A stretch of 64,000 nucleotides of DNA from Nanobdellota archaeon (lineage in GTDB: Archaea > Nanobdellota > Nanobdellia > Parvarchaeales > Parvarchaeaceae): positions 69,400 through 133,399 of the forward strand of contig JAJZNK010000025.1 of NCBI GenBank assembly GCA_021811735.1, read 5' to 3'. The translations under genes were made by a program, and so were the position numbers. The notes under the pieces are model-generated. The model saw only the letters and a list, made by a program, of their open reading frames with translations. It was not told the DNA's origin and ran no database searches. Shown here piece by piece: positions 7,328 to 62,715 of this stretch. How positions within the stretch are numbered: position 1 is the first letter of the stretch; every line of letters starts with the position of its first letter.

Positions 7328-7954
7328 CTAATGATTCGAATTCTTCGTTAAATTTAAATCTATCCCTAACTCATAAATTGCACTTATTAGCACCGTAATA
7401 TTATAGGCTATTAGCTTGCACAGCAACTCATTAACCTGCGCTATCTGGTTCTTGCTCTTTAGCATAGCACCGAACTTAGCCTTTATGGCAAAGAATGTGG
7501 TCTCCACATTAGATCTCTTGTGGTAATGCTCTAGAAATACCTCTTGATTAAGCTGGAAATAATGGTACATCTTACGCCATAACCACGCCTTACTACCACT
7601 ACGATAATTTGCAACAGTACTCTTCTTGAAAGGAATGTAAGGTACAGCTCCAACAGCATCAACAGCATTGAAATTGGCGAAAGAATTGTAAGCCTTATCC
7701 GCACTCATATTTTGAATGTCAAAGCCTAGTCTTGCGGTTTCATTGACAAGAGGTATAAACTGCGGACTATCCGCACCATGTTCATCGGTTATTACTGCAG
7801 TAGTTACTATATTGGTATTGTTTCCAGTCAAAGCGTGGCACTTGATCCATTTATGCTGTTTGTTTAATTTGTGCTTTATGTTGCAGTATTCGCTGAACTG
7901 AGTTGTCTCGAATCCCGTAGAATCCACACTAAAACTAGTCTCTACCGATTTCAA
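7328..7954 (-). pseudogene. IS5-family (IS4/IS5 DDE) transposase, N-terminally truncated remnant
   Basis: SVDSTGF (first D of DDE), ADKAY, and the C-terminal HYHKRSNVETTFFAIKAKFG signature of the IS5 family. Only 208 aa; the N-terminal DNA-binding region is missing and no in-frame upstream continuation exists. Confidence 0.6.
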
Positions 7955-10991: not shown

Positions 10992-11088
10992 GGCCTAGTA
11001 GCTTAGCCCGGTGGAGCACTGCTCTTATAAGAGTTTGCTCTAACATTAAGTAAAGCAGGGGTCGGGAGTCCAAATCTCCCCTAGGCCA
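10992..11088 (+). tRNA. tRNA-Ile (anticodon UAU) with a 23-nt intron after position 37
   Basis: Acceptor GGCCTAG/CTAGGCC (7 bp), D-arm GCTT..GAGC, anticodon stem CTGCT/AGCAG, loop CTTATA|intron AGAGTTTGCTCTAACATTAAGTA|A, T-arm GGGAG-TCCAAAT-CTCCC, discriminator A. Anticodon read as TAT. Folded by hand. Confidence 0.55.
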
Positions 11089-18549: not shown

Positions 18550-19053
18550 ATGACCAGGAATCTGGATAGTATAGTAGACGATAAAAATTCCAGCGGCTTT
18601 AGAAAGCTATTTAATGGAATTAAAAGTCTGTACGGCGAGTACGTGCCAGAGATAAGAGCTTATCTGGCTTCTATGGCAGGATTGTCCATAGGCGTAGCGA
18701 ACTGGAGTAAGGATTTTGGATATGACCACTCTGTAGGTCTCCCCTTTCTATATACCAATCTGGCAATCAATGGACCTATGTGGTATAATCTAGCCATGCT
18801 TCAGGAAGGTCTTACGGTGGCCACAGTGGCCGGATTGTCTAAAAACAAGCTAAAGGCAGCAGCCTATGCGTTTGCGTACGAAGCCGGAAGCGTTTTAAAT
18901 GCAATCCTGTATTATTCTGCGTTCTCCAATGAAACAGTCAACAATTACTACGGTAGAGCATGGAATACAGTTTTCTTTTTTTACCAAATCCCCATGTTTT
19001 TCATGCTGCTGAAACAGTATTTCGGTGCAAAGAAAAATAAGGATGGGGATTAA
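18550..19053 (+). CDS. Hypothetical membrane protein
   Basis: 167-aa ORF with several hydrophobic segments; no recognisable domain. Confidence 0.35.
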   Translation: MTRNLDSIVDDKNSSGFRKLFNGIKSLYGEYVPEIRAYLASMAGLSIGVANWSKDFGYDHSVGLPFLYTNLAINGPMWYNLAMLQEGLTVATVAGLSKNKLKAAAYAFAYEAGSVLNAILYYSAFSNETVNNYYGRAWNTVFFFYQIPMFFMLLKQYFGAKKNKDGD

Positions 19054-19661
19054 CCCAAAGATTTCCGATTTTTCCAAAAACTATCAAAGTCACAGAAGTG
19101 CATTTCACCACCAGCTATACAAGGGGCGGTTTTCTTCAATCCTAACCTTTGTAGAACGTTAAGGCCTGCAGAGGTGTAGGCATTTGCACCTATTTCCGAA
19201 AAGTAAACACCTTTTTGTTCTAATTCTTCAATCCTGGTAAAGAATGCATTAAGTAGAGGGTGTAGAAAACCCTTATGTTGCATTTCATCAATTATCCCTA
19301 TCATTATTATATAGAGAAAATACCTGCCAGGTTTGTTAATGTCGTCTAGGGTCTCGATGTTTATCAGCCCCTCAGGAAACGCACCGGTCTTGGCGATCTC
19401 AAAATATTTTTTCTTCATCGCTACGAATCTCAAGTATCCTATTATCTTATTTTCATTGTTTATCATCAAGACAAGACTATCAGGATATTTTTTTGTTATT
19501 TCTATCCAGTCTTCTGGGCTTCCTTCACTATCATAATTAAGATTTGGTATCAATTTGTAATCAAGCTGTACAAGTTTGGTTACTAATGAAGAAATCGTAA
19601 AGCCAATGCCGTGTATCTCTTTCAAAGGTATGCTTCTTACATTTTTCATGCTGCTATCCAT
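19050..19661 (-). CDS. Hypothetical protein, possibly a GNAT-fold acyltransferase
   Basis: IIMIGIIDEMQHKGFLHPLLNAFF weakly resembles GNAT motif A (Q/RxxGxG/A). Confidence 0.3.
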   Translation of the reverse strand: MDSSMKNVRSIPLKEIHGIGFTISSLVTKLVQLDYKLIPNLNYDSEGSPEDWIEITKKYPDSLVLMINNENKIIGYLRFVAMKKKYFEIAKTGAFPEGLINIETLDDINKPGRYFLYIIMIGIIDEMQHKGFLHPLLNAFFTRIEELEQKGVYFSEIGANAYTSAGLNVLQRLGLKKTAPCIAGGEMHFCDFDSFWKNRKSLG

Positions 19662-19832
19662 TATGCAGGGTCCTCCGATTAAATCACTGCAATTGTATTA
19701 AATAGCGTTTCTGAATAAATATTAAGATATCTTGTATTTTTGATTAGTCTGATTTGTTAATTAGTCTGTAAAAAGTTTATATAATAGATATCATCATCAA
19801 TTTTGATTAAAGAGGAGAGTTATTTTAATTGT

Positions 19833-21206
19833 ATGGAAAAAATACCGTACTGGGAAATTTGTAATAGTCTAATCGGTAAGAAAGGAGCCCCTCTGCCAGT
19901 ATATCTTGTAGAATATCAGATTACACCGGATAAAGTAACTAAGAATCCGCTGCTTAACGTTGGAAAGGATTACATCGGTTATTTTTACGTAAACGCTATG
20001 CAGGTAATAGGTAAGAAAAATGGCGTGGCGAACGGGCCGATACTTGCAAAACCTTATGGTGGTAGGGCAATCTCGCTGGCGGGGGAAGACAACATTACTC
20101 TTGGGAACAACGAATATACTCTAAACGTCAAAGGCGCCGGAACATTGGCATTCATGGAAGGTTTTAAGTATGAGGACAATGGATACAACAAAATGAGATT
20201 ATACAACGATGATGAGGACATCGATGGTCACGACCACATTGTATGGACAAGAGAAACAGGAATGCCCGGGTTTTCTTATATTACCGATAGTGGGAAGTTC
20301 AAGTTGACATCATTGATAACCGATTTGGATTTCGATAGTGGTAGCAGGGGAGCACATAGACCAATAGGCGGACAAGACCCCTATATAGCCAGTGAGGCTC
20401 TGAAAAGCTCCATATCAATGAAAAAAGACAAAGTAAAGATAAATTTTTGCCCTGTGTTATCAACAGTCGAAATGGATCTGCAAGATTACACAAAAACGAT
20501 GTGTAACGATGAAAAAGACAAATGCCAAACGATAAAAAAGCCCAGATATGCACAGGAGATACGGTTGGTGCCTTCCAATGTTAGGATAGATTCCCCAGAT
20601 TATCCAGTTGGGATACTTTCCATTAATAAACATTCAGATGCCATAAGGCAGGATCTCGCAGATAAATCAGTAGATATCAACGAGTTCGTTAAAAATGTAG
20701 TGGATACTTCAAAGCAAATATATTTTTTACCATATTTTTCGAGAGAGGAAAGTTCGTTCAATAGGTATAACTCTTATACCTTCTCCCATTCTGATGTACC
20801 TTCGGATACTTCTCTTGATAGCAAAGGGAACGCCTTCTACACTGATTTAGAGAGTATAGACAGAACAGACATATCGAAGCTTGAACTTCTTCTCAAGACA
20901 GCAGGAGTAGTATACGACACCGCTGATGAAGGGATACCCGCATTCATCTATACGCTTCTTATAGCAAATCGTTTGTGTTACAGTGAAAAGGCAGGAAACG
21001 TTAGGGAGACGTTAAAGAGGGCAAAAGAAGACTATGGAAATAGTTTTGACGGGTTCCTTTCACCAGAAAGTTATATAAAAATAAATCCTGACGATAAAAC
21101 AATCATTTCACACGTAGAAATCGACGGTGAAGGCATAACAGTAAAAACCAGGTTCAACGGGAAAAAGTTGCAATATCATTCTATGATAATAAACGACAGT
21201 TTCTGA
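19833..21206 (+). CDS. Large orphan hypothetical protein
   Basis: Long ORF (457 aa from MEKIPY; an alternative start at 19803 gives 467 aa). No motif I can name. Lies next to the tRNA-Arg gene. Confidence 0.4.
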   Translation: MEKIPYWEICNSLIGKKGAPLPVYLVEYQITPDKVTKNPLLNVGKDYIGYFYVNAMQVIGKKNGVANGPILAKPYGGRAISLAGEDNITLGNNEYTLNVKGAGTLAFMEGFKYEDNGYNKMRLYNDDEDIDGHDHIVWTRETGMPGFSYITDSGKFKLTSLITDLDFDSGSRGAHRPIGGQDPYIASEALKSSISMKKDKVKINFCPVLSTVEMDLQDYTKTMCNDEKDKCQTIKKPRYAQEIRLVPSNVRIDSPDYPVGILSINKHSDAIRQDLADKSVDINEFVKNVVDTSKQIYFLPYFSREESSFNRYNSYTFSHSDVPSDTSLDSKGNAFYTDLESIDRTDISKLELLLKTAGVVYDTADEGIPAFIYTLLIANRLCYSEKAGNVRETLKRAKEDYGNSFDGFLSPESYIKINPDDKTIISHVEIDGEGITVKTRFNGKKLQYHSMIINDSF

Positions 21207-21456: not shown

Positions 21457-21969
21457 ATGGAAACCGATGAAAAATCGGATGTGAGATGGGAAGCATATTA
21501 TCTATTGAAGCTAGTCATTGGTGACAAACTAGAAGGATTGTCGTCCATAAATGCAATAACAAATAAAATTTATTCCAATATATTTGAAGAGCGGAAGAAA
21601 TATGGGAAAAAATATGGTTTACAGAGTTCCCTGGAAGGTATAGCATTCGAACTGCAAGATTATATCGAAAAATGTGATGAGGCATCATTTGATAGCGGGA
21701 AAAATTTCAGAAAATATTCAGTGCGGCCCTATCTATCTGAGGAGGTTTTTGATATGTTAGAGACCTTCATAGACTATTCTTTTGATGTATATGGTATAGA
21801 CAACGTTTCTGTAAAGGTCTTACCATCTAGGAATGCGGAACAGAGGAAAGCGGTCAAAGTAAAGCAAGGTCTTGACAGTATACTCGATGCAATGTGTTCT
21901 ACAGAATTCGTTTTTGATACGGAGGATTGCGTGTCATTCTCCGATAAAAACAAACTCATAAAGTTATAA
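21457..21969 (+). CDS. Hypothetical protein
   Basis: 170-aa ORF, acidic, no recognisable domain. Confidence 0.35.
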   Translation: METDEKSDVRWEAYYLLKLVIGDKLEGLSSINAITNKIYSNIFEERKKYGKKYGLQSSLEGIAFELQDYIEKCDEASFDSGKNFRKYSVRPYLSEEVFDMLETFIDYSFDVYGIDNVSVKVLPSRNAEQRKAVKVKQGLDSILDAMCSTEFVFDTEDCVSFSDKNKLIKL

Positions 21970-22279: not shown

Positions 22280-22747
22280 TCAATTCCCTTTTTCTACGGC
22301 TTTAGCATACTCTTCTATTTTACTCAAAGTTCTGTCTATTATGTATGGTTTTACGAAGCTCGTCATTATCTCATCTAGTTTCATATTCTCCCTAACTCTG
22401 TAAAAACTGTTTCGCCGTTCGACGATGCCAACCGAAATAAGTTTTCTCAGGTCCCTGAGTATGTTGGCGTAGACTATTCTCACCTTCTTTTTATAAAGCT
22501 CTTTTATAATCTCATAACTATCCATCCCATTAGGTCTTTTTTTTCTTGCTTTAAGAAGAATATCAAGTATGTAAACTATAGCTATCCTGCTTTCTCCAGG
22601 TCTTACAAGACCGAGTGAAATGCATAGTCTCCTTATATTCGTGTTATAATCATTCGTTGGTCTTTCAAACTCATTCAACGAAATACCACTCAAAGGCCTG
22701 TCTTTGTACAGCCTCTCTGTTATTTTTTTGGTTCCTTTACTGTCCAT
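22280..22747 (-). CDS. Winged-helix transcriptional regulator
   Basis: 155 aa; MDSYEIIKELYKK...RIVYANILRDLRKLISVGIVERRNSFYRV, typical of PadR/MarR-like wHTH. Confidence 0.4.
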   Translation of the reverse strand: MDSKGTKKITERLYKDRPLSGISLNEFERPTNDYNTNIRRLCISLGLVRPGESRIAIVYILDILLKARKKRPNGMDSYEIIKELYKKKVRIVYANILRDLRKLISVGIVERRNSFYRVRENMKLDEIMTSFVKPYIIDRTLSKIEEYAKAVEKGN

Positions 22748-34289: not shown

Positions 34290-35933
34290 ATGGTAATGCT
34301 AACTTATACAATTGATGAAATGAACAAGCTCCTCGGTAAAAAGCTTAGTGAAGAGAAATATGAGAATATCGCATTCAAATACGGTTTGGATCTAGAAGTC
34401 GGAGAAAGCGCACTGAATTTTGAACTTACATCTGATAGGACTGACATTGTGTCAAAATATTCTCTTGCGTGCATTTTTGCCTCAGAACTTGGAATAAAAT
34501 TAAAAAGAGATATATCTATAAAGACAGAGAATCCCGGAATTTTCGTAGAGAAAACTGGAAGGCCTTTTGTTAATTTACTTCATGTCAGTCTCAATGGACA
34601 ACTTGGTGACAACTTAGATGAAGTAATAAAGATACAAGAAAGACTTGATAAGAACGTTGGAAGAAATAGGAAAAAGGCAGCAATAGGCTTATTTGATTAC
34701 GGCAAAATAAACTTCCCAATAAAATATCACGAGGAGATAGGTGACAATATAACTTTCGTGCCGTTAGGGTATTCTACCAAAAAGAATTATAAAGATATAA
34801 TCGGCGAAATCAAACAAGGACACGAATACGGCGACCTTCTTCCAGAAAAACCAGTAGTATGGTCTGACAAAACTGGGAGCATAATAGCTTTACCTCCGAT
34901 TATAAACTCAGATTATCATTCCATAAACAAAACCACTAATGAGCTTCTGGTGGATGTAACAGGGAACGATCCTGTGACGGTAAACACTGTGACAAAGATA
35001 CTCGCATATAATCTCCAGTTCCTTGGTCATGTATCATTACTGAAAGTAAATTACAGTTCAAAATCTATCTCTACTAATATTTCCTTTGACACGCATGCTT
35101 TTAGTCTAAATGAAGATACAGTTGAGTCATTGCTAGGTTTAAGGGTCAACAAAGGGGAGATAAAAAATATCTTATCTAAGATGGACTATTTTGTTAGGGA
35201 AAATTCAAAAGACTTGGTGGTGAAACCACCGTTTTATCGCCAGGATGTCATGCATCAAGTGGACATAATAGATGACATAATGAGGTGTATAGGTATTGAC
35301 AAAATCCCAAAAATACCTCCTAATTTTTATACAGAGGGAGGATTCTTGAAAAATCACTATACTTTAAATAATATTCGGGAGATTCTAGTGGGATTCGGAT
35401 ACCAGGAGATTGACGTAAATGTGCTTACAAACGAGAAATATCAGTTTGAGAATACTTTTTTAAAAGGAAAGCAGTACGTTAGCCTATTACATTTGAAAAG
35501 TGGAGATGTAACTATGACAAGCAAGAATGTATTTCCAGAACTTTTGAGGTTAGTATCAAACAATCTACACAAGAAATTTCCGCAGAATCTGTTTTCGTTG
35601 TCTGAAATCACGGAGAAAGGTGATTCTGATACGGTGTTCGAAAATCGGACAAAACTCTGTGTGTTATCATGCGGTAAAGATGTAAATGTTACGTATCTTC
35701 TTTCGATTATTAAAAAAGTATTGGGAGATTCGCTCCTTATTAAAGATATAAGTGCGGGTTATTCTGGGCAAGAATTTTCAATGACCTTTATACCTGGTAG
35801 GGGATATAATATATATTTCGGCGAGAAGACAATAGGAATCGCGGGAGAACTTCATCCTAGAGTTATTAATTCATTCGGTATAGAACTGCCGGTTACATTC
35901 GCAGAAATCTACATTGACGAGCTTTCAGCATGA
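34290..35933 (+). CDS. pheT: Phenylalanyl-tRNA synthetase beta subunit (archaeal type)
   Basis: B3/B4 and B5 domain organisation; about 550 aa; immediately downstream of pheS. I chose the start at MVMLTY (34290) rather than the overlapping 34257. Confidence 0.85.
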   Translation: MVMLTYTIDEMNKLLGKKLSEEKYENIAFKYGLDLEVGESALNFELTSDRTDIVSKYSLACIFASELGIKLKRDISIKTENPGIFVEKTGRPFVNLLHVSLNGQLGDNLDEVIKIQERLDKNVGRNRKKAAIGLFDYGKINFPIKYHEEIGDNITFVPLGYSTKKNYKDIIGEIKQGHEYGDLLPEKPVVWSDKTGSIIALPPIINSDYHSINKTTNELLVDVTGNDPVTVNTVTKILAYNLQFLGHVSLLKVNYSSKSISTNISFDTHAFSLNEDTVESLLGLRVNKGEIKNILSKMDYFVRENSKDLVVKPPFYRQDVMHQVDIIDDIMRCIGIDKIPKIPPNFYTEGGFLKNHYTLNNIREILVGFGYQEIDVNVLTNEKYQFENTFLKGKQYVSLLHLKSGDVTMTSKNVFPELLRLVSNNLHKKFPQNLFSLSEITEKGDSDTVFENRTKLCVLSCGKDVNVTYLLSIIKKVLGDSLLIKDISAGYSGQEFSMTFIPGRGYNIYFGEKTIGIAGELHPRVINSFGIELPVTFAEIYIDELSA

Positions 35934-36367
35934 ATTGCGAAATTTGTGGTGCGTTTGAGGAAAATCTAGTAAACGTCCAAGTAGAGGGAGCTTTTATGAA
36001 TCTTTGCAAGGCGTGTTCAAAATATGGGAAGGCGTCAGCTGGGTATGGAGTTGCCCAGGGAGATAATAAAAAAATGCAGTTATATGAAAGATCTTTAAAG
36101 GACAATTTTTCCGATATAATAAGAGAAGGATCCGAAAAGAAAGGGTTGTCTCCGGAAGAACTTGCAGATAGAATAAAATGCTCTCCAAATGACATTAAAA
36201 AGATAACTAGTGGCAAGCTTTTACCAGATGGAGAAACTATCAGAAAATTGGAGCGGTTTCTAGATATACAGTTATATGAAACTGAATCTGCCTCTAATAA
36301 GATGTTCACAGGCAAAGATGAAAAGCTTTCATTTGGAGACATAGTAGATATTAAAAGAAAAAAATAA
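35930..36367 (+). CDS. mbf1: Multiprotein bridging factor 1 (aMBF1): Zn-ribbon + HTH
   Basis: N-terminal CEICG...CKAC zinc ribbon and C-terminal XRE-type HTH (GLSPEELADRIKCSPNDIKKITSGK). Confidence 0.7.
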   Translation: MNCEICGAFEENLVNVQVEGAFMNLCKACSKYGKASAGYGVAQGDNKKMQLYERSLKDNFSDIIREGSEKKGLSPEELADRIKCSPNDIKKITSGKLLPDGETIRKLERFLDIQLYETESASNKMFTGKDEKLSFGDIVDIKRKK

Positions 36368-36371
36368 TTTT

Positions 36372-36454
36372 GCAGGGGTAGCGAAGCGGTCAAACGCGTA
36401 AGGCTTAGGACCTTATGGCTTAGGCCTTCGAGGGTTCGAATCCCTCCTCCTGCA
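36372..36454 (+). tRNA. tRNA-Leu (anticodon UAG), type II with a long variable arm
   Basis: Acceptor GCAGGGG/CTCCTGC, 3-bp D stem, anticodon stem TAAGG/CCTTA with loop CTTAGGA, variable arm GGC-TTAG-GCC, T-arm GAGGG-TTCGAAT-CCCTC. Confidence 0.8.
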
Positions 36455-36486: not shown

Positions 36487-36960
36487 ATGACATTGAAAAA
36501 ACTAATGGAAAAAACGCTTTATGGCTTATTAAACGAGGAAAAAAGCCACCCTAATTCGAAATTGTCATATTATCTAAGAATACATTTTCCAGAAAAGCTT
36601 GATGAAAACTCATTAAAGCAGATAATGGATGAATCTGCGGAAGCTAATTATATGCGAGTTTCTTATCTGCCGTCCGGATCAAAAATATTCTACGGATTAA
36701 AATCGGGATCCACTATGATGATATTATCAAAGAATAAGACTAGGATTGGTCGGGTTTTTACTAACGGTGTCTTTTTTAGTAGATGGTTGATGGTAAGTTA
36801 CTCTTTTCCATCTGGTGAGGATATTTCTGAGATAACCTTTGAAGTAGACAAATATGAATCCTACAAAAAAGAAGTATCAGATTTCATTGCAAGCATATAC
36901 AAGTGTGTATTCTCTGATAACGGGGAAAATGTGAACAGTTTCCTTGAACTCAGATATTAA
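36487..36960 (+). CDS. Hypothetical protein
   Basis: 157-aa ORF, no recognisable domain. Confidence 0.35.
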   Translation: MTLKKLMEKTLYGLLNEEKSHPNSKLSYYLRIHFPEKLDENSLKQIMDESAEANYMRVSYLPSGSKIFYGLKSGSTMMILSKNKTRIGRVFTNGVFFSRWLMVSYSFPSGEDISEITFEVDKYESYKKEVSDFIASIYKCVFSDNGENVNSFLELRY

Positions 36961-38374: not shown

Positions 38375-38842
38375 ATGATAAATATGAAAGAATGGAGGAT
38401 ATATTTATTGCTTGCACTTCTAATAGTTCTACTGCTTGGTTTTATCGTCGCAGGTAAATCTTCTCCAGTTTATAACCTGCAGGTTCCGCAGTCGGTAAAC
38501 TGTAATTCTGTTAACCTTGGATTCACAACCCTGACAGGTAAAACTTTCAGTGCGCCAGAAGGTACAAACACGTTTTCAACGATATTGGTCAACAATACCG
38601 GAAACGTGACCGAAAGTATAGATTTGAACGTAGTTCCAAACGGAAATGTACCCTTTACAATAGAGTCTGCAAAACTATTCCAACTCAATTCCAGCACGAG
38701 CGGACACACTGAATTTGGAGTTTACTCTCCAACGAAGACTGGAAATTATAGTGTGGTTGCAAATTTGTCTGCCAGTTATCTTAATTGCGTCAATTATAAA
38801 CTTATACCCATGAATATCACAGTGGTCAATGCTACTGGCTGA
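38375..38842 (+). CDS. Secreted/membrane-anchored protein with multiple N-glycosylation sequons
   Basis: N-terminal hydrophobic signal/anchor (IYLLLALLIVLLLGFIVAG); at least 8 N-x-S/T sequons. Confidence 0.4.
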   Translation: MINMKEWRIYLLLALLIVLLLGFIVAGKSSPVYNLQVPQSVNCNSVNLGFTTLTGKTFSAPEGTNTFSTILVNNTGNVTESIDLNVVPNGNVPFTIESAKLFQLNSSTSGHTEFGVYSPTKTGNYSVVANLSASYLNCVNYKLIPMNITVVNATG

Positions 38843-49317: not shown

Positions 49318-49608
49318 CTACTTAACTGTCTGAAGTCCGCAATTATAATTTAGGTTTATTTCATTTGCATTCGAACACGTTATAGCGGATTGAGAGGACA
49401 CGACAGCACATGAATACCCAAAACTTGCATTTTCATTTATGCAGGTGTTACTGGTAAAAGTGGAGTTCGTTATTATATGATGACAGTCAAGTTCGCAGAT
49501 CCCTATAGCAACCTGTCTATGGTTCTCATATGGGTTAGTGTAGAAAAGTGCCGCACCTATAATTAGTGCAACAATCACTAGCAAAACAGCGTAATAACTC
49601 TTATCCAT
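49318..49608 (-). CDS. Small Cys-rich membrane-anchored/secreted protein
   Basis: Start taken at internal MDKSYYAVLLVIVALIIGAALFY (TM/signal). 8 Cys in 97 aa. The longer 185-aa ORF would overlap the convergent Nudix-like gene. Confidence 0.35.
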   Translation of the reverse strand: MDKSYYAVLLVIVALIIGAALFYTNPYENHRQVAIGICELDCHHIITNSTFTSNTCINENASFGYSCAVVSSQSAITCSNANEINLNYNCGLQTVK

Positions 49609-49672
49609 ACGATAAATATACTGTCGATGTTTATATAAAAAGTGTTTAAAACTATGAGTTACATTAATCTTT

Positions 49673-50077
49673 ATGCCTAAAAGAGTATCAGCACTGGTTA
49701 TACGGGATAACAAGGTGTTAATGGTGAAACTTAAAGAGCAAGACAGGTATATGCCGAGAGCATCTTGGGTTTTTCCATTTCTTGAATTAGGTGAGGAGAA
49801 CAGTCCAAGGAGAGAGATACTGTCTCTCATGCAGAAACTATCAGTTGAGGTCAGGTTAATCGGAAAGGTTTTCAACTACTATCCGAGCGAAAACCCTAAA
49901 CTGCATTATTTTTTATACGTTATGGACTACGTAAACGGGGAACCAGAAGTCCTGTCATTTTTCCAGAGTTACAAATGGGTACAGATTTCGGATATAACCT
50001 CCTACTCTACGTCGTTCATGGACAACAATGTATCAAAATTTCTGGAAGAAAGGGCAAGGCAGTACAGTACAAATTAA
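49673..50077 (+). CDS. Nudix-like hydrolase (degenerate Nudix box)
   Basis: ALVIRDNKVLMVKLKE...WVFPFLELGEENSPRREILSLMQKLSVE; GX5EX7REUXEEXGU is only partly conserved. Confidence 0.35.
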   Translation: MPKRVSALVIRDNKVLMVKLKEQDRYMPRASWVFPFLELGEENSPRREILSLMQKLSVEVRLIGKVFNYYPSENPKLHYFLYVMDYVNGEPEVLSFFQSYKWVQISDITSYSTSFMDNNVSKFLEERARQYSTN

Positions 50078-56332: not shown

Positions 56333-59300
56333 ATGGCAGAAAATGATGCTTTGAACGATGTCCGTGATGCTGCCGCAAAAGAAGAACACAAATTAGAGGA
56401 ACAGATTAAAAAAGAGGAAAGAGAAGTGCGGCGGGAAGAGAAAGAGCTAAAAAAAGAAGAAAAAAGCATAGAAGCGCTTAAGAATGAGGAAGAAAAGCTC
56501 GAAAGAATAAGCGAGGAAGTCTCCAAAAAAAAGATAAGTGAAATCGAAATAGAACTTAATTTTTCTGGTCTTAAAAAGTTTGGGGAAACTGCTTATGATG
56601 TACTCATCAAGAAAAGAGTTCTTTTTTACATTTTGCTTGTTTTGGCCGTGACGGTCGGGTTTGGTTCGTTTATTCCTGGTGGATGGGCTGTGCATACAGC
56701 AAGTGTCCCAGCTCTGTTGAATCCTCTTCATTCAAATTTTTCAGTTATAGGTAGCAATTATCTTGGGATGGGAGGATCCCTCTCTGGTTTGGATCCGTAT
56801 ATCTTTTATATCCAGATGGAAAATGTACTGAAAACTGGAAATGTGCCTGTCATCAATTATATGCAATACTTACCACTAGGTTTATCGTCAAGAACGGACG
56901 AATTAATGGTTTCATTTTTTGGTGCATATTCTGCAAGGCTTATTGACCCTATGGTAAAAGGTGCAGTACCAATGACTTCTTTTATGTTTTTACCTGCTTT
57001 TTTCGCAGTATTCTCGGCGCTGCTTCTATTCTTGATTTTACTTGAGTTGTTCGGAGATTACTGGATGGCGAGCATAAGCGCTTTTATACTGCCTGCGTTT
57101 CTTACGTTTTTAAGTCGTTCGACCGCCGGATTCTCACAGAAAACTTCAATGGGATTTATGTTCATTCTTCTGGCCATATTTTTCCTGTCAAAATCGTTAA
57201 AGTCAAAAAGAACAAGGAGCAAAATGATTTACGGGCTGGCAACAGGTATTGCAACTGGTTTAGCGTCTGCAGCAAGCGGATACAGCGAGTATCTAATTTT
57301 GGTTATACCTATAATATATATTGTCATTATCCTCCTCGGATACGCAAAGAAAGGAGATATGTTTGCCTATTTGTTATTTGCTATATGGGTTCCAATAAAG
57401 GTCAGTTTTGTGACATTCACTTTTTCGGATGTAATACACAGCGCGCTTTATTATCCTATGCTGTTTTCTTATGTTCTGGTTCTCTTCAAGCTTCTAGTAT
57501 ATGACAAATATCATACGAAACTAAAAATTCCACTTGTAAGCAATGGGTTTTCGGTAGTCATATACGGCGCTATAATTTCATTAGCAGTTCTGGCGCTCAC
57601 TGGCCTAAACACGCTAAAGCATGCATTTCTCAAGCTCTCGTCTCAGTTCACACATCCTTTGGGTGTAGGAATAGTGAATCCAGTAACGCAGACAATAGCA
57701 GAATATGCCCCTTTAAATCTATCACAGAGAATTCAGGATTTTAACTTTTTAGTAGGTTCTCTAGGCATAAACTTCTTATTTTTCTGTGCGGGAGCAGGCA
57801 TATTATTATTTATTGTGTTAAAAAGGTTTAAGCACTGGTACATACCTTACCTATTTGGTGTTCCATTTATATTGATGTTGAATGGGGGAACATTCAGTTA
57901 TAATTCCAGCTCATACCTATTCCTTTCCGTGTTTTTAGCGCTCGAATTCATGCCTCTTGGTTATTTATTTTTACATAAAACTGAAATCGAGTCAAAAAGA
58001 ATCTTCAGCTTGGTAATCTTTCTTACTATGATTTCGCTTATAATGACTATAGTGTTATGGACAATGAATTCTTCCACCAATAATTATAAGTACGGTGCGG
58101 TGGCGTTGGTGATAATATTTGTACTAGAATTCGCATTTGATAAACAGCAAGATACAAATATCATATCTTTACTTGCTATAATACCATTTTTCTTTTTCAT
58201 TACAACGGTATTATTATCTAATGTAGAGAGTAGACTTCTTGAGCCAACAGAACTTGGAGCAGCCATAATAATACCATTTGCATTTGTTTATCTTTTCAGA
58301 GGCTCGATAGACATAGTTAAAAGATTTACTGGATCAACAAACACAAGAAACATCCTCTCAGCTGTAATAATCATAATAGCAATTGCCTTAATGGTAGCGG
58401 ATTTGCATTCAAGCCTTGTTTTGTCTTATCACGTTGCACAATCGAGTGGAAGTGGCCTTTTGCTCTGGGGTCCTACGATGCAGTGGATTAATCAGAATAC
58501 TCCCACTAATACTTCCATAATTTCGTGGTGGGATTACGGCTATTGGGAAGAAGCTATAGCAAATAGAACCGCGGTTGCAGATGGAAGTAATGCATATGGT
58601 TATCAGTCTATGATTGCGAAGTACTTCTTTGAAGCAACATCTCCTTACACTTATTCTACTTACCTTCATTTTATACACCAACCTACTTACGCCGTAATAA
58701 GCGGGAGCGAGATACAAAAGTTTTCAGCAATATCCACCATAGCTCTTAACCCAACCTCATTCACTCCGATGCAAGAAGTAAATGCAACAATTAATTCACA
58801 GAATATAGGAAACAAAAGCTACAAATACTTGATTTCATTCGGCGATACAAACGGTCAGATTGCTCCTCTTTATTCAAATGCGGCAGTAAAAGGTCTACCC
58901 GGAAACGCGAACAATGATCTTCTGGTCGAGGTGATGATACCTGTAAATGCTACAAATAATGGGGTGATAACCTCAACCGGCAGTCCTTATGGTGTATTAT
59001 ATAGCGAACTGACCGCCACATTCTCATCCCCAATGCCACTCGATTACAATTGTGTCTATAGTTTAGGTTGTAATTATGTTACCAATAGTGGTATCCCTGG
59101 AGCAGTCATGCTTCTCAACGCTACAAATTCGGTAAATCTTCACATTGGTGGAATACCACAGGCACCAGGGGGGTACAGCAATCTTCCGATAAATTTGTCA
59201 CAGTTTGGAAACGCCCCTTCATTGCTTTACATGCCGAATGAAACTTTGAACACTCTGTTTGATAAACTTTATCTTTTGAATGAAAGTGTTCCAGGTTTCA

Positions 59301-59530
59301 AACTTCTATATTCCGATAATTTACCAGTTAATTCTCTTTTGAGTATTGAAAATCAAGTTTTGACTAACATAAATGTCTACAAAATAAATTATACTGAATT
59401 AAGCAAGTACGTGCTCACTGGAGAATGCTCAGTTTCACCCTCCGCAGCCAATTACTGTGATAACTTAAACTATCTGCCAGTGGTTTTCGCAAACAATAGC
59501 AAACTTATAAATGATACTCCTATTAATTAA
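56333..59530 (+). CDS. aglB: Oligosaccharyltransferase AglB/STT3 with a ~95-aa E/K-rich N-terminal extension
   Basis: WWDYGYW motif (SIISWWDYGYWEEAIA), 13 or more TM helices, large C-terminal soluble domain; 1065 aa. The first ~95 aa are charged coiled coil (KEEHKLEEQIKKEEREVRREEKELKKEEKSIEALKNEEEKLE) before TM1. Confidence 0.8.
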   Translation: MAENDALNDVRDAAAKEEHKLEEQIKKEEREVRREEKELKKEEKSIEALKNEEEKLERISEEVSKKKISEIEIELNFSGLKKFGETAYDVLIKKRVLFYILLVLAVTVGFGSFIPGGWAVHTASVPALLNPLHSNFSVIGSNYLGMGGSLSGLDPYIFYIQMENVLKTGNVPVINYMQYLPLGLSSRTDELMVSFFGAYSARLIDPMVKGAVPMTSFMFLPAFFAVFSALLLFLILLELFGDYWMASISAFILPAFLTFLSRSTAGFSQKTSMGFMFILLAIFFLSKSLKSKRTRSKMIYGLATGIATGLASAASGYSEYLILVIPIIYIVIILLGYAKKGDMFAYLLFAIWVPIKVSFVTFTFSDVIHSALYYPMLFSYVLVLFKLLVYDKYHTKLKIPLVSNGFSVVIYGAIISLAVLALTGLNTLKHAFLKLSSQFTHPLGVGIVNPVTQTIAEYAPLNLSQRIQDFNFLVGSLGINFLFFCAGAGILLFIVLKRFKHWYIPYLFGVPFILMLNGGTFSYNSSSYLFLSVFLALEFMPLGYLFLHKTEIESKRIFSLVIFLTMISLIMTIVLWTMNSSTNNYKYGAVALVIIFVLEFAFDKQQDTNIISLLAIIPFFFFITTVLLSNVESRLLEPTELGAAIIIPFAFVYLFRGSIDIVKRFTGSTNTRNILSAVIIIIAIALMVADLHSSLVLSYHVAQSSGSGLLLWGPTMQWINQNTPTNTSIISWWDYGYWEEAIANRTAVADGSNAYGYQSMIAKYFFEATSPYTYSTYLHFIHQPTYAVISGSEIQKFSAISTIALNPTSFTPMQEVNATINSQNIGNKSYKYLISFGDTNGQIAPLYSNAAVKGLPGNANNDLLVEVMIPVNATNNGVITSTGSPYGVLYSELTATFSSPMPLDYNCVYSLGCNYVTNSGIPGAVMLLNATNSVNLHIGGIPQAPGGYSNLPINLSQFGNAPSLLYMPNETLNTLFDKLYLLNESVPGFKLLYSDNLPVNSLLSIENQVLTNINVYKINYTELSKYVLTGECSVSPSAANYCDNLNYLPVVFANNSKLINDTPIN

Positions 59531-59532
59531 TC

Positions 59533-60093
59533 ATGAAAGTGATAGTCTCCGGTTTAACAGCCTCAGGCAAATCAAGCGTTTCTAAAGATATAGCATCTAA
59601 TCTAGGTATAGACTACTTCTCAGCAAGTTCCAAACTTAAAGAGATTCTTCCAAAAAAAGATTTCGAGGTTTGGGAGTCTAAAAAGGGGATAGACGCAGTA
59701 AAATTTAGGCTAAAATACCCTCAGTATGACAAAAAACTCGATTCGTTTATAAGCTCTCTATTTAAAAAGAGAAGTAACCTTGTAATGGACAGTTGGGTTG
59801 CGGCCTGGAAAATAAAGGATAAAAATATTATTAAGATCTACATAAAAGCAGATGAGAAAACAAGAGCATTACGTGTAGGAGTTAGAGATAGACTGAGCGT
59901 TAAGCAGGCGCTGGCGTTTATGCGGGAAAAAGACAGACTAACCCAACAAATCTACAAAAATATTTATGGGATAGAAATAGATATAGACTTTACTCCATTT
60001 GACTTGGTTATCGACTCATCAAATCTGGATTTAAAGGATACGATAAAATTATGTTTGGATTTTATACATAAACAGAAAAAGGTAAAGTTTTAA
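59533..60093 (+). CDS. cmk: Archaeal-type cytidylate kinase (COG1102)
   Basis: P-loop VSGLTASGKSSVSK; ...YGIEIDIDFTPFDLVIDSS. Conserved cmk-cbf5 adjacency. Confidence 0.6.
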   Translation: MKVIVSGLTASGKSSVSKDIASNLGIDYFSASSKLKEILPKKDFEVWESKKGIDAVKFRLKYPQYDKKLDSFISSLFKKRSNLVMDSWVAAWKIKDKNIIKIYIKADEKTRALRVGVRDRLSVKQALAFMREKDRLTQQIYKNIYGIEIDIDFTPFDLVIDSSNLDLKDTIKLCLDFIHKQKKVKF

Positions 60094-60116
60094 TTCTTAC
60101 CTCGCAATTTAATAAA

Positions 60117-61127
60117 ATGAAACTGCCATTGGAAGGTTTAAAGCAGGAAGTTTTCTCTATAAGGTCAGAGGAAACCGACACAAAATACGGCAGATTTCCG
60201 AAAGAAAGAAGCATAGAAGAGAGAATGAATTACGGTTTTATTCTGTTGGACAAACCAGCAGGTATAAGATCAAAGACGGCTGCGCATATAGCAAAAAAGG
60301 TTATGGACAGTTTTGCGGTAAAAAAGATAGGATACTCAGGGACTTTAGAAGATTGAAGAAATCCCAACGTAACCGGTCTTCTACCACTCGCCATAAACAA
60401 TGCTACCAAGGCGCTTTCGGTGCTTCTTTTCGGCGGAAAGGAATATGTGGCTCTCATGCACCTGCACAACGAAGTAGGGGAGCAATTACTTAGGGATACG
60501 TTCAATAAATTTATAGGTAAGATTATGCAGCTTCCTCCCGTTAGATCACATGTAAAACGTCAGTATCGACAGAGAGAAATATATTATTCCGAAATACTCG
60601 AAATAGAAGGAAAGGACGTGCTCTTTAAGGTTGGAGTGGAATCTGGTACATATATACGAAAGTTAATACATGATATTGGGCAAGATTTGGGGGTTGGTGC
60701 TCATATGACAGAACTGAGAAGGACTAAAGTTTCGACTCTTTCTGAAAAGGACAGCATGGTTACTTTGCAAGATTTGGATGATGCAGTTTATTTGTACAGG
60801 AATGATGGAGATAAAAGGCTACTAGAGAAATGCCTTGGTAACATAGAATCTGCCATAGATTTCCTCCCAAAAATATTTGTTTCGGATGGAGCCGTAGATC
60901 CTGTATGTCATGGATCACCTCTTGCAATTCCTGGCGTTGTAAAGCTTACAGAATTCCAAAAAGATGAAACCGCTGCAATAATGTCTTTAAAAGGGGAGCT
61001 AATAGCCTTAGGGAAAACTGTTCTGTCATCCGATGAGATTAAATCATTTAAAAAAGGTGTGGCTGTAAAGACTGATAGTGTTATAATGAACACAGGAACT
61101 TACCCAACATATAAAAAGATTAATTAG
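60117..61127 (+). CDS. cbf5: tRNA pseudouridine synthase Cbf5/TruB (H/ACA RNP catalytic subunit), interrupted by one in-frame TGA at 60354-60356
   Basis: The two track ORFs (60117-60356 and 60420-61127) are in the same frame. Translating through the TGA gives ...IGYSGTLED*RNPNVTGLLPLAINNATKALSVLLFGGKEYVALMHL..., which covers the catalytic GTLD..VTG motif. Read-through length is 336 aa, typical for Cbf5. A PUA domain sits at the C-terminus. Confidence 0.8.
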
Positions 61128-62428: not shown

Positions 62429-62529
62429 TTTTTTGCTTATATTAATTATATTATAAATACTTGCGGTTAATAAAGATGATACAGATACTGAGAAGTCTTT
62501 TTATTTGAAAGTTAACTCTAAACTATAAT

Positions 62530-62612
62530 GCAGAGGTAGCGAAGCGGTCAAACGTGTAAGGCTAAGGACCTTATGGCTCAGGCCTTCGAGGGTTCAAATC
62601 CCTCCCTCTGCA
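62530..62612 (+). tRNA. tRNA-Leu paralogue; the anticodon loop reads CTAAGGA, giving an apparent AAG anticodon (unusual A34)
   Basis: Acceptor GCAGAGG/CCTCTGC (compensatory changes relative to the Leu-UAG gene at 36372), stem TAAGG/CCTTA, loop C-T-A-A-G-G-A, T-loop TTCAAAT. Confidence 0.6.
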
Positions 62613-62715
62613 GTTTTATTGCTATTCTATTAAAGCAATAGACCCTATACAGAACCGGCAAAGTAATGTTTGAATACAAAAGTATAAATACTAAGCAAAT
62701 TTATAGAATAGAATT

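What the first reader, a model, noticed from the sequence alone, without database searches (positions are those of the whole stretch)
60117..61127. In-frame TGA inside the catalytic motif of an otherwise intact cbf5 (pseudouridine synthase) gene
Seen in sequence: the two Cbf5 ORFs share one reading frame and are separated only by TGA at 60354-60356 (…GGG ACT TTA GAA GAT TGA AGA AAT CCC AAC GTA ACC GGT… = G T L E D * R N P N V T G). Both the upstream TLxD and the downstream PxVTG of the conserved GTLDPKVTG motif are present. Sequence conservation continues unbroken downstream, and the total length (336 codons) is normal. Cbf5 is essentially universal and essential in Archaea. TGA is an ordinary stop elsewhere in this window (trxB, lsm), so a global reassignment is unlikely. 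The stop lies in a 9-nt segment (TGAAGAAAT) that looks like a slipped near-duplicate of the preceding GAAGATT. Possible explanations are a sequencing or assembly artefact, a very recent inactivating micro-duplication, or local recoding such as read-through, bypass or Sec-like insertion. All three are worth knowing about.
Basis: partly seen in the sequence, partly recalled or inferred. Interest (0 to 1): 0.8.

Follow-up and report, generated by a model that had tools for sequence, protein, structure and literature searches.

The report
12-nt splicing intron inside cbf5
The stop codon inside this essential pseudouridine-synthase gene lies in a 12-base archaeal intron that is very probably cut out of the mRNA by the tRNA-splicing enzymes, so the gene is intact; it is the shortest example found here of a known cbf5 intron, in an archaeal group (Parvarchaeota) where none had been reported.

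Summary
In detail: cbf5 (60117-61127, +) has an in-frame TGA at 60354-60356 inside the catalytic GTLDPxVTG motif. It is not an artefact, a pseudogene or a recoding site. The TGA lies in a 12-nt bulge-helix-bulge (BHB) type intron, AAGATTGAAGAA (60349-60360), which interrupts the catalytic Asp codon (G|AT). Cutting at the canonical bulge positions gives GGG ACT TTA GAT CCC, i.e. GTLDP. Evidence: every Parvarchaeota relative keeps the insert while synonymous sites are saturated. Nine of its 12 bases are invariant and only three loop bases vary. Other lineages carry 13-39-nt inserts at the same codon, many not a multiple of three, always with both helices paired and with compensatory changes. Both exons are under strong purifying selection. 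Intron-less relatives read GYSGTLDPNVTG. The same site is known for the crenarchaeal cbf5 intron (16-44 nt). What is new is the lineage (DPANN, reported to have a "strict" alpha4 endonuclease), the minimal size with a degenerate 5' bulge, and a near-universal in-frame stop inside these introns. Splicing itself was not observed, because no cDNA evidence was found.

The parts
60117..60348 (+). cbf5 exon 1 (77 codons plus the first base, G, of the catalytic Asp codon)
   Evidence: dN/dS 0.07-0.15 against relatives
60349..60360 (+). 12-nt BHB-type mini-intron AAGATTGAAGAA. Removing 60350-60361 gives the identical product. It contains the in-frame TGA.
   Evidence: Removal gives GGG ACT TTA GAT CCC = GTLDP (sequence). 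9 of 12 bases are invariant in 15 Parvarchaeota sequences, against 4% of fourfold sites. Homologous inserts of 12-39 nt sit at the same codon elsewhere.
60354..60356 (+). In-frame TGA, third codon of the unspliced reading (G|AA GAU UGA). It terminates translation of unspliced mRNA after 79 residues.
   Evidence: In-frame stops occur in 41/41 in-frame introns of the family, against about 30% expected.
60361..61127 (+). cbf5 exon 2 (AT of the Asp codon through the TAG stop at 61125-61127)
   Evidence: dN/dS about 0.06 with dS saturated. No in-frame start codon before GTG 60420, although 60361-60419 encodes the conserved PNVTGLLPLAINNATKALSV.
60339..60342 (+). Outer helix h, 5' strand GGGA (exon 1), pairs with 60362-60365
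   Evidence: 100% paired in 19 sequences and in 115 metagenome cases. Needs the codons GGG/GAT/CCY: 17/17 intron-bearing genes against 2/42 intron-less genes.
60343..60346 (+). Central 4-bp helix H, 5' strand CTTT (exon 1, Thr/Leu codons), pairs with 60355-60358
   Evidence: 100% paired. Compensatory U-A to C-G changes at two pairs. 12 H5/H3 combinations, all complementary.
60347..60349 (+). 5' bulge B1 (A G | A); 5' splice site between 60348 and 60349
   Evidence: Canonical cut between the 2nd and 3rd bulge nucleotide (rule as stated in PMC2738675). B1 is AGA in 74 of 105 unique introns.
60350..60354 (+). Remnant of inner helix h': invariant A60350 and U60354 flanking a variable triloop (60351-60353)
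   Evidence: Per-site conservation 1.0, 0.67, 0.87, 0.80, 1.0. h' shrinks with intron length: 4 bp at 20 nt, 3 bp at 16 nt, 2 bp at 15 nt, 1 bp at 12 nt.
60355..60358 (+). Central helix H, 3' strand GAAG (intron)
60359..60361 (+). 3' bulge B2 (A A | A); 3' splice site between 60360 and 60361
   Evidence: A 3-nt AAA bulge appears in the minimum-energy fold and is invariant in all homologues.
60362..60365 (+). Outer helix h, 3' strand TCCC (exon 2)
60330..60335 (+). Extended outer helix, 5' strand GGATAC, pairs with GTAACC at 60369-60374 across a 3x3 internal loop
   Evidence: In the fold. 84% of cells paired, one compensatory change. Weaker support than for h and H.
60369..60374 (+). Extended outer helix, 3' strand GTAACC
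10992..11088 (+). tRNA-Ile(UAU) with a 23-nt intron (11030-11052). This is another substrate of the same splicing enzymes in this genome. Its 3' bulge is canonical, and its 5' site lies in an asymmetric internal loop.
   Evidence: Rfam tRNA hit, sequence, fold

Best explanation
The 12 bases at 60349-60360 are an archaeal bulge-helix-bulge type intron in the cbf5 pre-mRNA. In the transcript, exon bases GGGA (60339-42) pair with UCCC (60362-65). Exon bases CUUU (60343-46) pair with intron bases GAAG (60355-58). An AAA bulge (60359-61) is left on the 3' side, and the 5' splice site sits at the start of an 8-nt loop (AGA + AGAUU). The tRNA-splicing endonuclease (EndA) cuts between the 2nd and 3rd nucleotide of each bulge, and the RNA ligase (RtcB) joins the exons. 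This recreates the Asp codon (G + AU) and the canonical catalytic motif GYSGTLDPNVTG in a 332-residue Cbf5. Unspliced mRNA is translated only to the TGA and gives a 79-residue fragment. Shown here: the structure, its conservation and covariation, the exact restoration of the motif, purifying selection on both exons, and homology of position and architecture with cbf5 introns in other archaea. Inferred: that EndA and RtcB carry out the reaction in this organism, and that the in-frame stop has a protective role.
For: (1) Geometry: the minimum-energy folds of the 51- and 91-nt contexts give GGGA/UCCC, an AAA bulge and CUUU(A)/(U)GAAG. The canonical cut positions remove exactly 12 nt and give GTLDP.
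(2) All 15 or more Parvarchaeota relatives (59-83% protein identity) keep the insert. 9 of 12 bases are invariant, against 4% of fourfold-degenerate sites. Only the three triloop bases vary.
(3) Covariation: h and H are paired in 100% of 19 sequences, with U-A to C-G double changes in H that track synonymous Thr/Leu codon changes. Slid controls pair in 31-48% of cells.
(4) Related lineages carry 15-, 16- and 20-nt inserts at the same codon. The 16- and 20-nt ones have full canonical hBHBh' motifs and shift the frame, so only excision can yield Cbf5.
(5) A metagenome scan found 115 genuine cbf5 genes with inserts of 12-39 nt, all with h and H paired 4/4. Five chance hits had 1-3/4.
(6) Helix h needs the codons GGG, GAT and CCY: 17/17 intron-bearing genes against 2/42 intron-less genes.
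(7) dN/dS is 0.06-0.15 on both sides of the stop, with dS at or near saturation. The conserved motif-II segment lies between the TGA and the first in-frame start codon.
(8) Intron-less Parvarchaeales-like Cbf5 proteins read GYSGTLDPNVTG, the predicted product.
(10) Archaeal tRNA introns as short as 11 nt are known (PMC2738675).
Against: There is no direct evidence of the spliced RNA. No full-length protein more than about 70% identical exists in the 5.8-billion-protein collection, and the exact spliced junction was not found in the metagenome collection. Both results are uninformative if no suitable metatranscriptome is held. The 5' bulge is not a clean 3-nt bulge: h' is at most one A-U pair, so the motif is a relaxed bulge-helix-loop. 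ARMAN-4/-5 are reported to have only a 'typical alpha4' EndA without the specificity loops (PMC3239211, PMC5829648), a class said to cut only strict BHB motifs. Folding energy alone is not significant for the short contexts (z = -0.5 and -0.9; -2.1 for 91 nt). No endA or rtcB gene lies in the window.
Confidence: 0.9

Rival explanations
1. Pseudogene: a micro-duplication or insertion inactivated cbf5, and the lineage does without it or uses another copy.
For: The gene is called as two ORFs of 79 and 235 aa by all pipelines. GAAGA is repeated 7 nt apart. DPANN genomes are reduced.
Against: The insert is conserved in more than 15 species while synonymous sites are saturated. dN/dS is 0.06-0.15 in both halves. 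9 of 12 insert bases are invariant. No further lesions have accumulated. The first GAAGA copy varies in relatives.
Confidence: 0.02
2. Translational recoding: the TGA is read through (Sec, a suppressor tRNA or near-cognate decoding), giving a Cbf5 with a 4-residue insertion in the active-site loop.
For: The insert is in frame (12 nt) in this organism, and a hairpin surrounds the stop.
Against: The would-be Asp of 'ED*' changes to N, H, Y or A in relatives, so the read-through protein would lack a conserved catalytic Asp. Other lineages have TAA, not TGA. Homologous inserts of 13, 14, 16, 17, 19 and 20 nt shift the frame. No tRNA-Sec is in the window. TGA ends 19 of 60 genes. Solved Cbf5 structures have no such insertion.
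Confidence: 0.02
3. Ribosomal bypassing (hopping) over the 12 nt, as in phage T4 gene 60.
For: It is a short untranslated gap containing a stop codon and flanked by a hairpin. GAA occurs both before and inside the gap.
Against: The Asp codon is assembled from G (60348) plus AT (60361-62), which whole-codon take-off and landing cannot achieve. A GAA-to-GAA hop would land out of frame and give no Asp. The conserved features are exactly those of a BHB motif, with a 3-nt bulge, a 4-bp helix, and cut sites that give the right product at every length from 12 to 39 nt.
Confidence: 0.02
4. Split gene: the 79-aa and 235-aa products are made separately and assemble into an active enzyme.
For: Split genes are common in DPANN, and both ORFs are conserved.
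Against: The first in-frame start after the TGA is GTG 60420. A separate C-terminal product would therefore lack the conserved PNVTGLLPLAINNATKALSV, which is nevertheless under strong purifying selection in this frame. Neither piece would carry a conserved catalytic Asp.
Confidence: 0.02
5. Sequencing or assembly artefact.
For: None beyond prior probability.
Against: An identical ORF occurs in at least 23 contigs from Logan, ENA and JGI samples. The same insert is in 12 GTDB species representatives, including ARMAN-4.
Confidence: 0.005

Closest known systems
cbf5 pre-mRNA intron of Crenarchaeota (Desulfurococcales and Sulfolobales; Watanabe et al. 2002 FEBS Lett 510:27; Yoshinari et al. 2006 BBRC 346:1024; Yokobori et al. 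2009, PMC2738675)
   Same: Same gene and same site (it interrupts the codon of the catalytic Asp). Same type of exon-intron structure, often a relaxed BHB. Same predicted cut between the 2nd and 3rd bulge nucleotides. Too short to encode anything. The distribution is patchy, with intron-less relatives.
   Different: The published introns are 16-44 nt and were reported only in two crenarchaeal orders, and their splicing was linked to hetero-oligomeric (alpha-beta)2 endonucleases. This one is 12 nt with h' reduced to at most one pair. It is in a DPANN lineage (Parvarchaeota/ARMAN-4-like) reported to have an alpha4 EndA. Splicing here is inferred, not shown.
Archaeal pre-tRNA BHB / BHL introns
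   Same: Same motif logic (helix, 3-nt bulge, 4-bp helix, bulge or loop) and presumably the same enzymes. tRNA introns go down to 11 nt. The window's own tRNA-Ile(UAU) intron has the same 4-bp helix plus 3-nt 3' bulge arrangement.
   Different: It lies in a protein-coding mRNA with no tRNA body to help recognition. Exon bases of the helices are also constrained by codons, which gives the GGG/GAT/CCY codon signature.
BHB intron in the 5' UTR of Haloferax volcanii HVO_1309 (Schwarz et al. 2020, PMC7714728)
   Same: A non-tRNA, non-rRNA substrate of the archaeal splicing endonuclease in an organism without an (alpha-beta)2 enzyme.
   Different: That intron is in an untranslated region and does not interrupt a codon, and it is in a different gene and lineage.
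12-bp putative introns or indels in archaeal rudivirus genomes (Peng et al., as cited in PMC2738675)
   Same: The same 12-bp length, inside protein-coding genes of archaeal genetic elements.
   Different: Splicing was never shown for them and they may simply be translated. There is no evidence here of mobility or of a sequence relationship, and I did not examine those sequences.
UGA recoding (selenocysteine insertion or programmed read-through)
   Same: An in-frame UGA within a conserved gene next to a hairpin.
   Different: The stop identity is not conserved (TAA in other lineages), the frame is not conserved, the upstream codon is not conserved, and there is no Sec machinery in the window.

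Membership tests
cbf5 pre-mRNA BHB intron (Watanabe 2002 / Yokobori 2009) | Insert lies within the codon of the catalytic Asp of Cbf5 | tested here: met
   G|AT split at 60348/60361. [quoted passage not shown]
cbf5 pre-mRNA BHB intron (Watanabe 2002 / Yokobori 2009) | Cutting between the 2nd and 3rd nucleotide of each bulge yields an uninterrupted, canonical reading frame | tested here: met
   The product is GGG ACT TTA GAT CCC = GTLDP. The same rule works for all 115 metagenome cases of 12-39 nt. Intron-less relatives read GYSGTLDPNVTG.
cbf5 pre-mRNA BHB intron (Watanabe 2002 / Yokobori 2009) | Spliced mRNA demonstrated (cDNA) and cleavage by the splicing endonuclease | not testable with these tools
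   I attempted this indirectly. There was no full-length close homologue among proteins and no spliced junction in the metagenome contigs. Neither result is informative without a metatranscriptome.
Archaeal BHB motif, strict form (hBHBh') | Two 3-nt bulges on opposite strands separated by a 4-bp helix and flanked by helices h and h' | tested here: not met
   h, H and the 3' bulge are present. The 5' bulge opens into an 8-nt loop, and h' is at most the single pair A60350-U60354. Relatives with 16- and 20-nt introns do meet the strict form.
Archaeal BHB motif, relaxed form (hBH / bulge-helix-loop) | One intact 3-nt bulge, a 4-bp helix and an outer helix, with the other splice site in a loop at the symmetric position | tested here: met
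   h and H are 100% paired, there are compensatory changes in H, and the AAA bulge is invariant.
Archaeal BHB motif, relaxed form (hBH / bulge-helix-loop) | Organism has an endonuclease type known to cut relaxed motifs ((alpha-beta)2 or epsilon2, or an alpha4 with the L3 loop) | not testable with these tools
   No endA in the window. The literature says ARMAN-4/-5 have a typical alpha4 EndA of 177 aa without the L3 loop, which argues against this feature being met. The window's tRNA-Ile intron also has a non-strict 5' site.
Selenocysteine / UGA recoding site | Conserved UGA in frame, a conserved reading frame across it, and Sec machinery | tested here: not met
   TAA in L014 and L043, a frame shift in L070 and L071, and no tRNA-Sec in the window.
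Pseudogene | Relaxed selective constraint (dN/dS approaching 1) and accumulation of further lesions | tested here: not met
   dN/dS is 0.06-0.15 on both sides, and there are no other stops or frameshifts in 15 species.

The most novel reading that the evidence does not exclude
The Asp-codon intron of cbf5 is an ancient, actively maintained checkpoint rather than a passive insertion. It sits at one codon in DPANN, Bathyarchaeia-like and crenarchaeal lineages. It almost always carries an in-frame stop, so that unspliced mRNA cannot produce an active-site-disrupted, possibly dominant-negative Cbf5. It makes synthesis of the H/ACA pseudouridine synthase depend on the tRNA-splicing endonuclease and ligase. 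In Parvarchaeota it is processed, in a non-tRNA context and in a minimal bulge-helix-loop form, by an alpha4 endonuclease that current models say cannot do this.
Probability: 0.2. Interest if true: 0.75.

Novelty: new member of a known kind. Interest (0 to 1): 0.55.

Why it matters
Annotation: every pipeline splits this essential gene into a 79-aa and a 223-260-aa ORF. NCBI names the C-terminal piece 'Cbf5' although it lacks the catalytic Asp. This affects marker-gene completeness estimates and metabolic reconstructions for Parvarchaeota and, judging from the metagenome scan, for many Bathyarchaeia-like and Woesearchaeota genomes.

Biology: reviews up to 2023 describe the cbf5 intron as confined to a small group of Crenarchaeota and tied to (alpha-beta)2 endonucleases. 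The data here show the same codon interrupted in at least DPANN and Bathyarchaeia-like lineages, with a continuous length series from 12 to 39 nt.

Enzymology: if ARMAN-4/-5 really have only a loop-less alpha4 EndA, the 12-nt bulge-helix-loop substrate challenges the accepted link between enzyme architecture and substrate range, and it offers a 40-nt test substrate.

Function: the near-universal in-frame stop gives a concrete hypothesis for the still-unknown role of this intron.

Tried and rejected
- Folding energy as a test. The z-scores for the 27- and 51-nt contexts are not significant, so I relied on comparative evidence instead.
- Looking for a spliced (cDNA-derived) form. The protein search gave no full-length close homologue, and the exact-junction DNA search gave 0 hits. 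This is inconclusive rather than negative.
- Looking for endA or rtcB in the window. There was no hit among 20 size-matched ORFs.
- Rfam at gathering thresholds found only tRNAs in the window, so no curated family covers this element.
- A genome-wide style scan of the window for other BHB mini-introns. I considered it and dropped it, because the expected chance matches (thousands of 8-bp-compatible arrangements) far exceed what could be checked without homology evidence.
- The micro-duplication idea was rejected because the first GAAGA copy is not conserved.
- Single-linkage clustering of the metagenome Cbf5 fragments did not resolve independent lineages well (1 cluster at 50%, 8 at 60%, 28 at 70%). 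The 41/41 stop-codon count therefore includes related sequences.
- The NJ tree is rough and midpoint-rooted. I used it only to show the patchy distribution.
Full report
**1. The observation**

The window encodes a Cbf5 (H/ACA pseudouridine synthase) gene at 60117-61127 on the + strand. Read in one frame it is 336 codons with a single internal TGA at 60354-60356, giving ...GYSGTLED*RNPNVTG.... Pfam recognises DKCLD, TruB_N, TruB_C_2 and PUA. Solved Pyrococcus and Methanocaldococcus Cbf5 structures align from residue 8 to 331 (E about 1e-85) with one gap of four residues, exactly at 'ED*R'. TGA terminates 19 of 60 genes in the window, so it is an ordinary stop. The exact 79-residue upstream ORF occurs in at least 23 contigs from independent Logan, ENA and JGI assemblies.

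**2. What the sequence shows directly**

Deleting 12 bases, AAGATTGAAGAA (60349-60360), turns GGG ACT TTA G|AAGATTGAAGAA|AT CCC into GGG ACT TTA GAT CCC, i.e. GTLDP, the canonical motif. The bases around the insert form the architecture recognised by the archaeal tRNA-splicing endonuclease:

| Element | Coordinates | Sequence |
|---|---|---|
| Outer helix h | 60339-42 / 60362-65 | GGGA / UCCC |
| Central 4-bp helix H | 60343-46 / 60355-58 | CUUU / GAAG |
| 3' bulge B2 | 60359-61 | AAA |
| 5' splice site (start of an 8-nt loop) | 60347-54 | AGA + AGAUU |

The minimum-energy folds of the 51- and 91-nt contexts return this arrangement. Yokobori et al. state that the cut falls between the second and third nucleotide of each bulge (PMC2738675). 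That rule removes exactly these 12 nt. Energy alone is weak evidence (z = -0.5, -0.9 and -2.1 for 27, 51 and 91 nt), so the case rests on comparison.

**3. Close relatives**

The organism is a Parvarchaeota (ARMAN-4-like) archaeon. The twelve best genome hits are Parvarchaeota or 'Nanoarchaeota' MAGs, including Ca. Parvarchaeum acidiphilum ARMAN-4 (66-83% protein identity). All of them, and three further lineages reached through truncated protein hits (L068, L069, L072), keep a 12-nt insert with the TGA at the same place.

- Synonymous divergence between these genes is at or near saturation, and dN/dS is 0.06-0.15 on both sides of the stop. Both halves are therefore translated in this frame and are under strong purifying selection.
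- Against that background, 9 of the 12 insert bases are invariant in 15 sequences, while only 4% of fourfold-degenerate sites are invariant.
- The three variable bases (60351-60353) lie between the invariant A60350 and U60354. This is the pattern expected for a one-pair remnant of the inner helix closing a triloop.
- Because of this variation the 'D' of 'ED*' becomes N, H, Y or A, so it cannot be the catalytic Asp.
- The first in-frame start after the TGA is GTG 60420. The 21 codons before it encode the conserved PNVTGLLPLAINNATKALSV, which rules out a separately translated C-terminal protein.

**4. More distant relatives**

| Loci | Lineage | Insert | Central helix H | Inner helix h' |
|---|---|---|---|---|
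| L070, L071 | Parvarchaeales-like (59-62% identity) | 16 nt, UGUGAUUCACAAAGAA; shifts the frame by +1 | CUUU/AAAG | GUG/CAC (3 bp), loop AUU; full canonical hBHBh' |
| L014 | labelled Woesearchaeota | 15 nt | CCUU/AAGG | 2 bp |
| L043 | Cbf5 groups with Woesearchaeota | 12 nt | CUCU/GGAG | none |
| L052, L053 | Thermoproteota | 20 nt | CUCU/GGAG | GGGC/GCCC (4 bp); textbook hBHBh' |

In every case the same cut rule gives GTLDPxV(T/S)G. On an alignment of 19 distinct sequences, h and H are paired in 100% of cells. Two H pairs show U-A to C-G double changes, where synonymous Thr/Leu codon changes in the exon are matched by changes in the intron. Sliding the 3' partners by 1-3 columns drops pairing to 31-48% (earlier 14-sequence version). 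Helix h requires the codons GGG (Gly), GAT (Asp) and CCY (Pro). That combination is found in 17 of 17 intron-bearing genes but in only 2 of 42 intron-less ones. Intron-less Parvarchaeales-like proteins read GYSGTLDPNVTG, the predicted spliced product. The DNA of one of them (L067) reads GGT ACC TTA GAT CCA, free of the helix constraint.

**5. Breadth**

I ran a pattern scan of JGI metagenome contigs for GGGACNNTNG-N(9-39)-GAAATCCNNNNGTNANNGG. It fixes only one of the four H pairs.

- 115 matches are genuine cbf5 genes with inserts of 12 to 39 nt at this codon. All have h and H paired 4/4.
- The five chance matches have 1-3 of 4 H pairs and no Cbf5 context.
- Among the 105 unique introns analysed, twelve H5/H3 sequence combinations occur and all are complementary. 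Lengths fall about evenly into the three frame classes (41, 30 and 34). The inner helix grows with intron length, from 1 bp at 12-13 nt to 4-7 bp at 20-26 nt.
- The largest group is 72-80% identical to proteins that NCBI names 'Candidatus Bathy...', i.e. Bathyarchaeia.
- The scan could not detect inserts shorter than 12 nt, so 12 nt is the shortest found, not a proven minimum.

**6. The stop codon is part of the design**

All 41 unique in-frame introns contain an in-frame stop. So do 26 of 30 and 26 of 34 introns in the two frame-shifting classes. After shuffling the free part of each intron, 23-32% would be expected to. The first stop is most often the third codon, as in the window (G|AA GAU UGA). 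The sequences are not phylogenetically independent, so the count overstates the number of events, but stop type and position differ among lineages. My inference is that unspliced mRNA is made to terminate early rather than produce a full-length protein with a disrupted active site.

**7. Mechanism and its weak points**

The best-supported mechanism is endonucleolytic excision by EndA at the two bulge positions and ligation by RtcB, as shown experimentally for the crenarchaeal cbf5 intron (literature). Three points remain open.

- No spliced RNA was observed. No full-length close homologue exists in the protein collection, and the exact spliced junction has no match in the metagenome contigs. 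This shows only that no cDNA-like assembly is held.
- The 12-nt form is a relaxed bulge-helix-loop, not a strict BHB.
- ARMAN-4/-5 are reported to possess only a typical alpha4 EndA of 177 aa without the L3 loop (PMC3239211, PMC5829648). That class is described as restricted to strict motifs, and archaeal pre-mRNA splicing has been tied to hetero-oligomeric enzymes.

The window's own tRNA-Ile(UAU) intron (11030-11052) also has a non-strict 5' site. This suggests that the enzyme is more tolerant than assumed, but only in a tRNA context. No endA or rtcB lies in the window.

**8. Comparison with what is known**

The cbf5 intron was discovered in Aeropyrum and Sulfolobus (Watanabe 2002). It was surveyed by Yokobori et al. 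(2009), who found 16-44 bp introns only in Desulfurococcales and Sulfolobales, none in Thermoproteales, Thaumarchaeota, Korarchaeum or Nanoarchaeum. [quoted passage not shown] Reviews from 2020 and 2023 still describe it as limited to a small group of related archaea. Full-text searches combining cbf5 with intron and ARMAN, DPANN or Parvarchaeota found no report outside Crenarchaeota.

The element in the window is therefore a member of this known family: same gene, same codon, same structural logic. It occurs in a new phylum-level lineage, is shorter than any published example, and has the inner helix almost gone.

**9. Verdict**

The finding is real and explained. It is a mini-intron, not a recoding event, a pseudogene or an artefact. 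I rate it a new member of a known kind, with moderate interest. The interest comes from the systematic mis-annotation of an essential gene, the much wider distribution of this intron than the literature states, the tension with the reported alpha4 endonuclease, and the stop-codon regularity.

Noticed in passing
All 41 unique in-frame introns carry an in-frame stop, as do 76-87% of the frame-shifting ones, against 23-32% expected after shuffling.
   Followed up: partly
L137 and similar loci; The largest environmental intron-bearing group is 72-80% identical to Cbf5 proteins named 'Candidatus Bathy...' (Bathyarchaeia). The closest database proteins are full-length, so both intron-bearing and intron-less forms seem to exist in that group.
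   Followed up: partly
L052:3175-3209 and L053:3157-3191: Two Thermoproteota MAGs (one isolate is named 'Kor1') have a textbook hBHBh' 20-nt cbf5 intron. Their class within Thermoproteota was not determined, so they may or may not lie outside the published Desulfurococcales/Sulfolobales range.
   Followed up: no
window 10992-11088: tRNA-Ile(UAU) with a 23-nt intron at 37/38 (11030-11052). Rfam found it but ARAGORN missed it. The 3' bulge is canonical (UA|A), and the 5' site lies in a 2x5 asymmetric internal loop.
   Followed up: partly
window 62529-62613: tRNA-Leu with anticodon AAG (A at the wobble position). This matches the unusual A34 tRNAs that Fujishima et al. 2011 reported for ARMAN-4/-5.
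   Followed up: no
P0018, P0021, P0059: NCBI annotation names the 248-aa C-terminal ORF of intron-bearing genes 'RNA-guided pseudouridylation complex pseudouridine synthase subunit Cbf5', although it starts after the catalytic Asp. The 79-aa N-terminal ORF is called separately. This is a systematic mis-annotation across Parvarchaeota MAGs.
   Followed up: partly
window 56333-61127; L061-L072: The gene order STT3/AglB-like 1060-aa membrane protein, cytidylate-kinase-like protein, cbf5 is conserved across intron-bearing and intron-less Parvarchaeales-like contigs.
   Followed up: no
window 7328-7954 (-): A 208-aa ORF with a DDE transposase domain (PF01609), i.e. an IS element or a fragment of one, in an otherwise compact region.
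   Followed up: no
window 19803-21206 (+) and several 150-200-aa ORFs: A 467-aa ORF and seven smaller ORFs (18550-19053, 19050-19661, 21457-21969, 22280-22747, 35893-36393, 36487-36960, 38375-38842, 49318-49875 among them) have no Pfam match at E <= 0.001.
   Followed up: no
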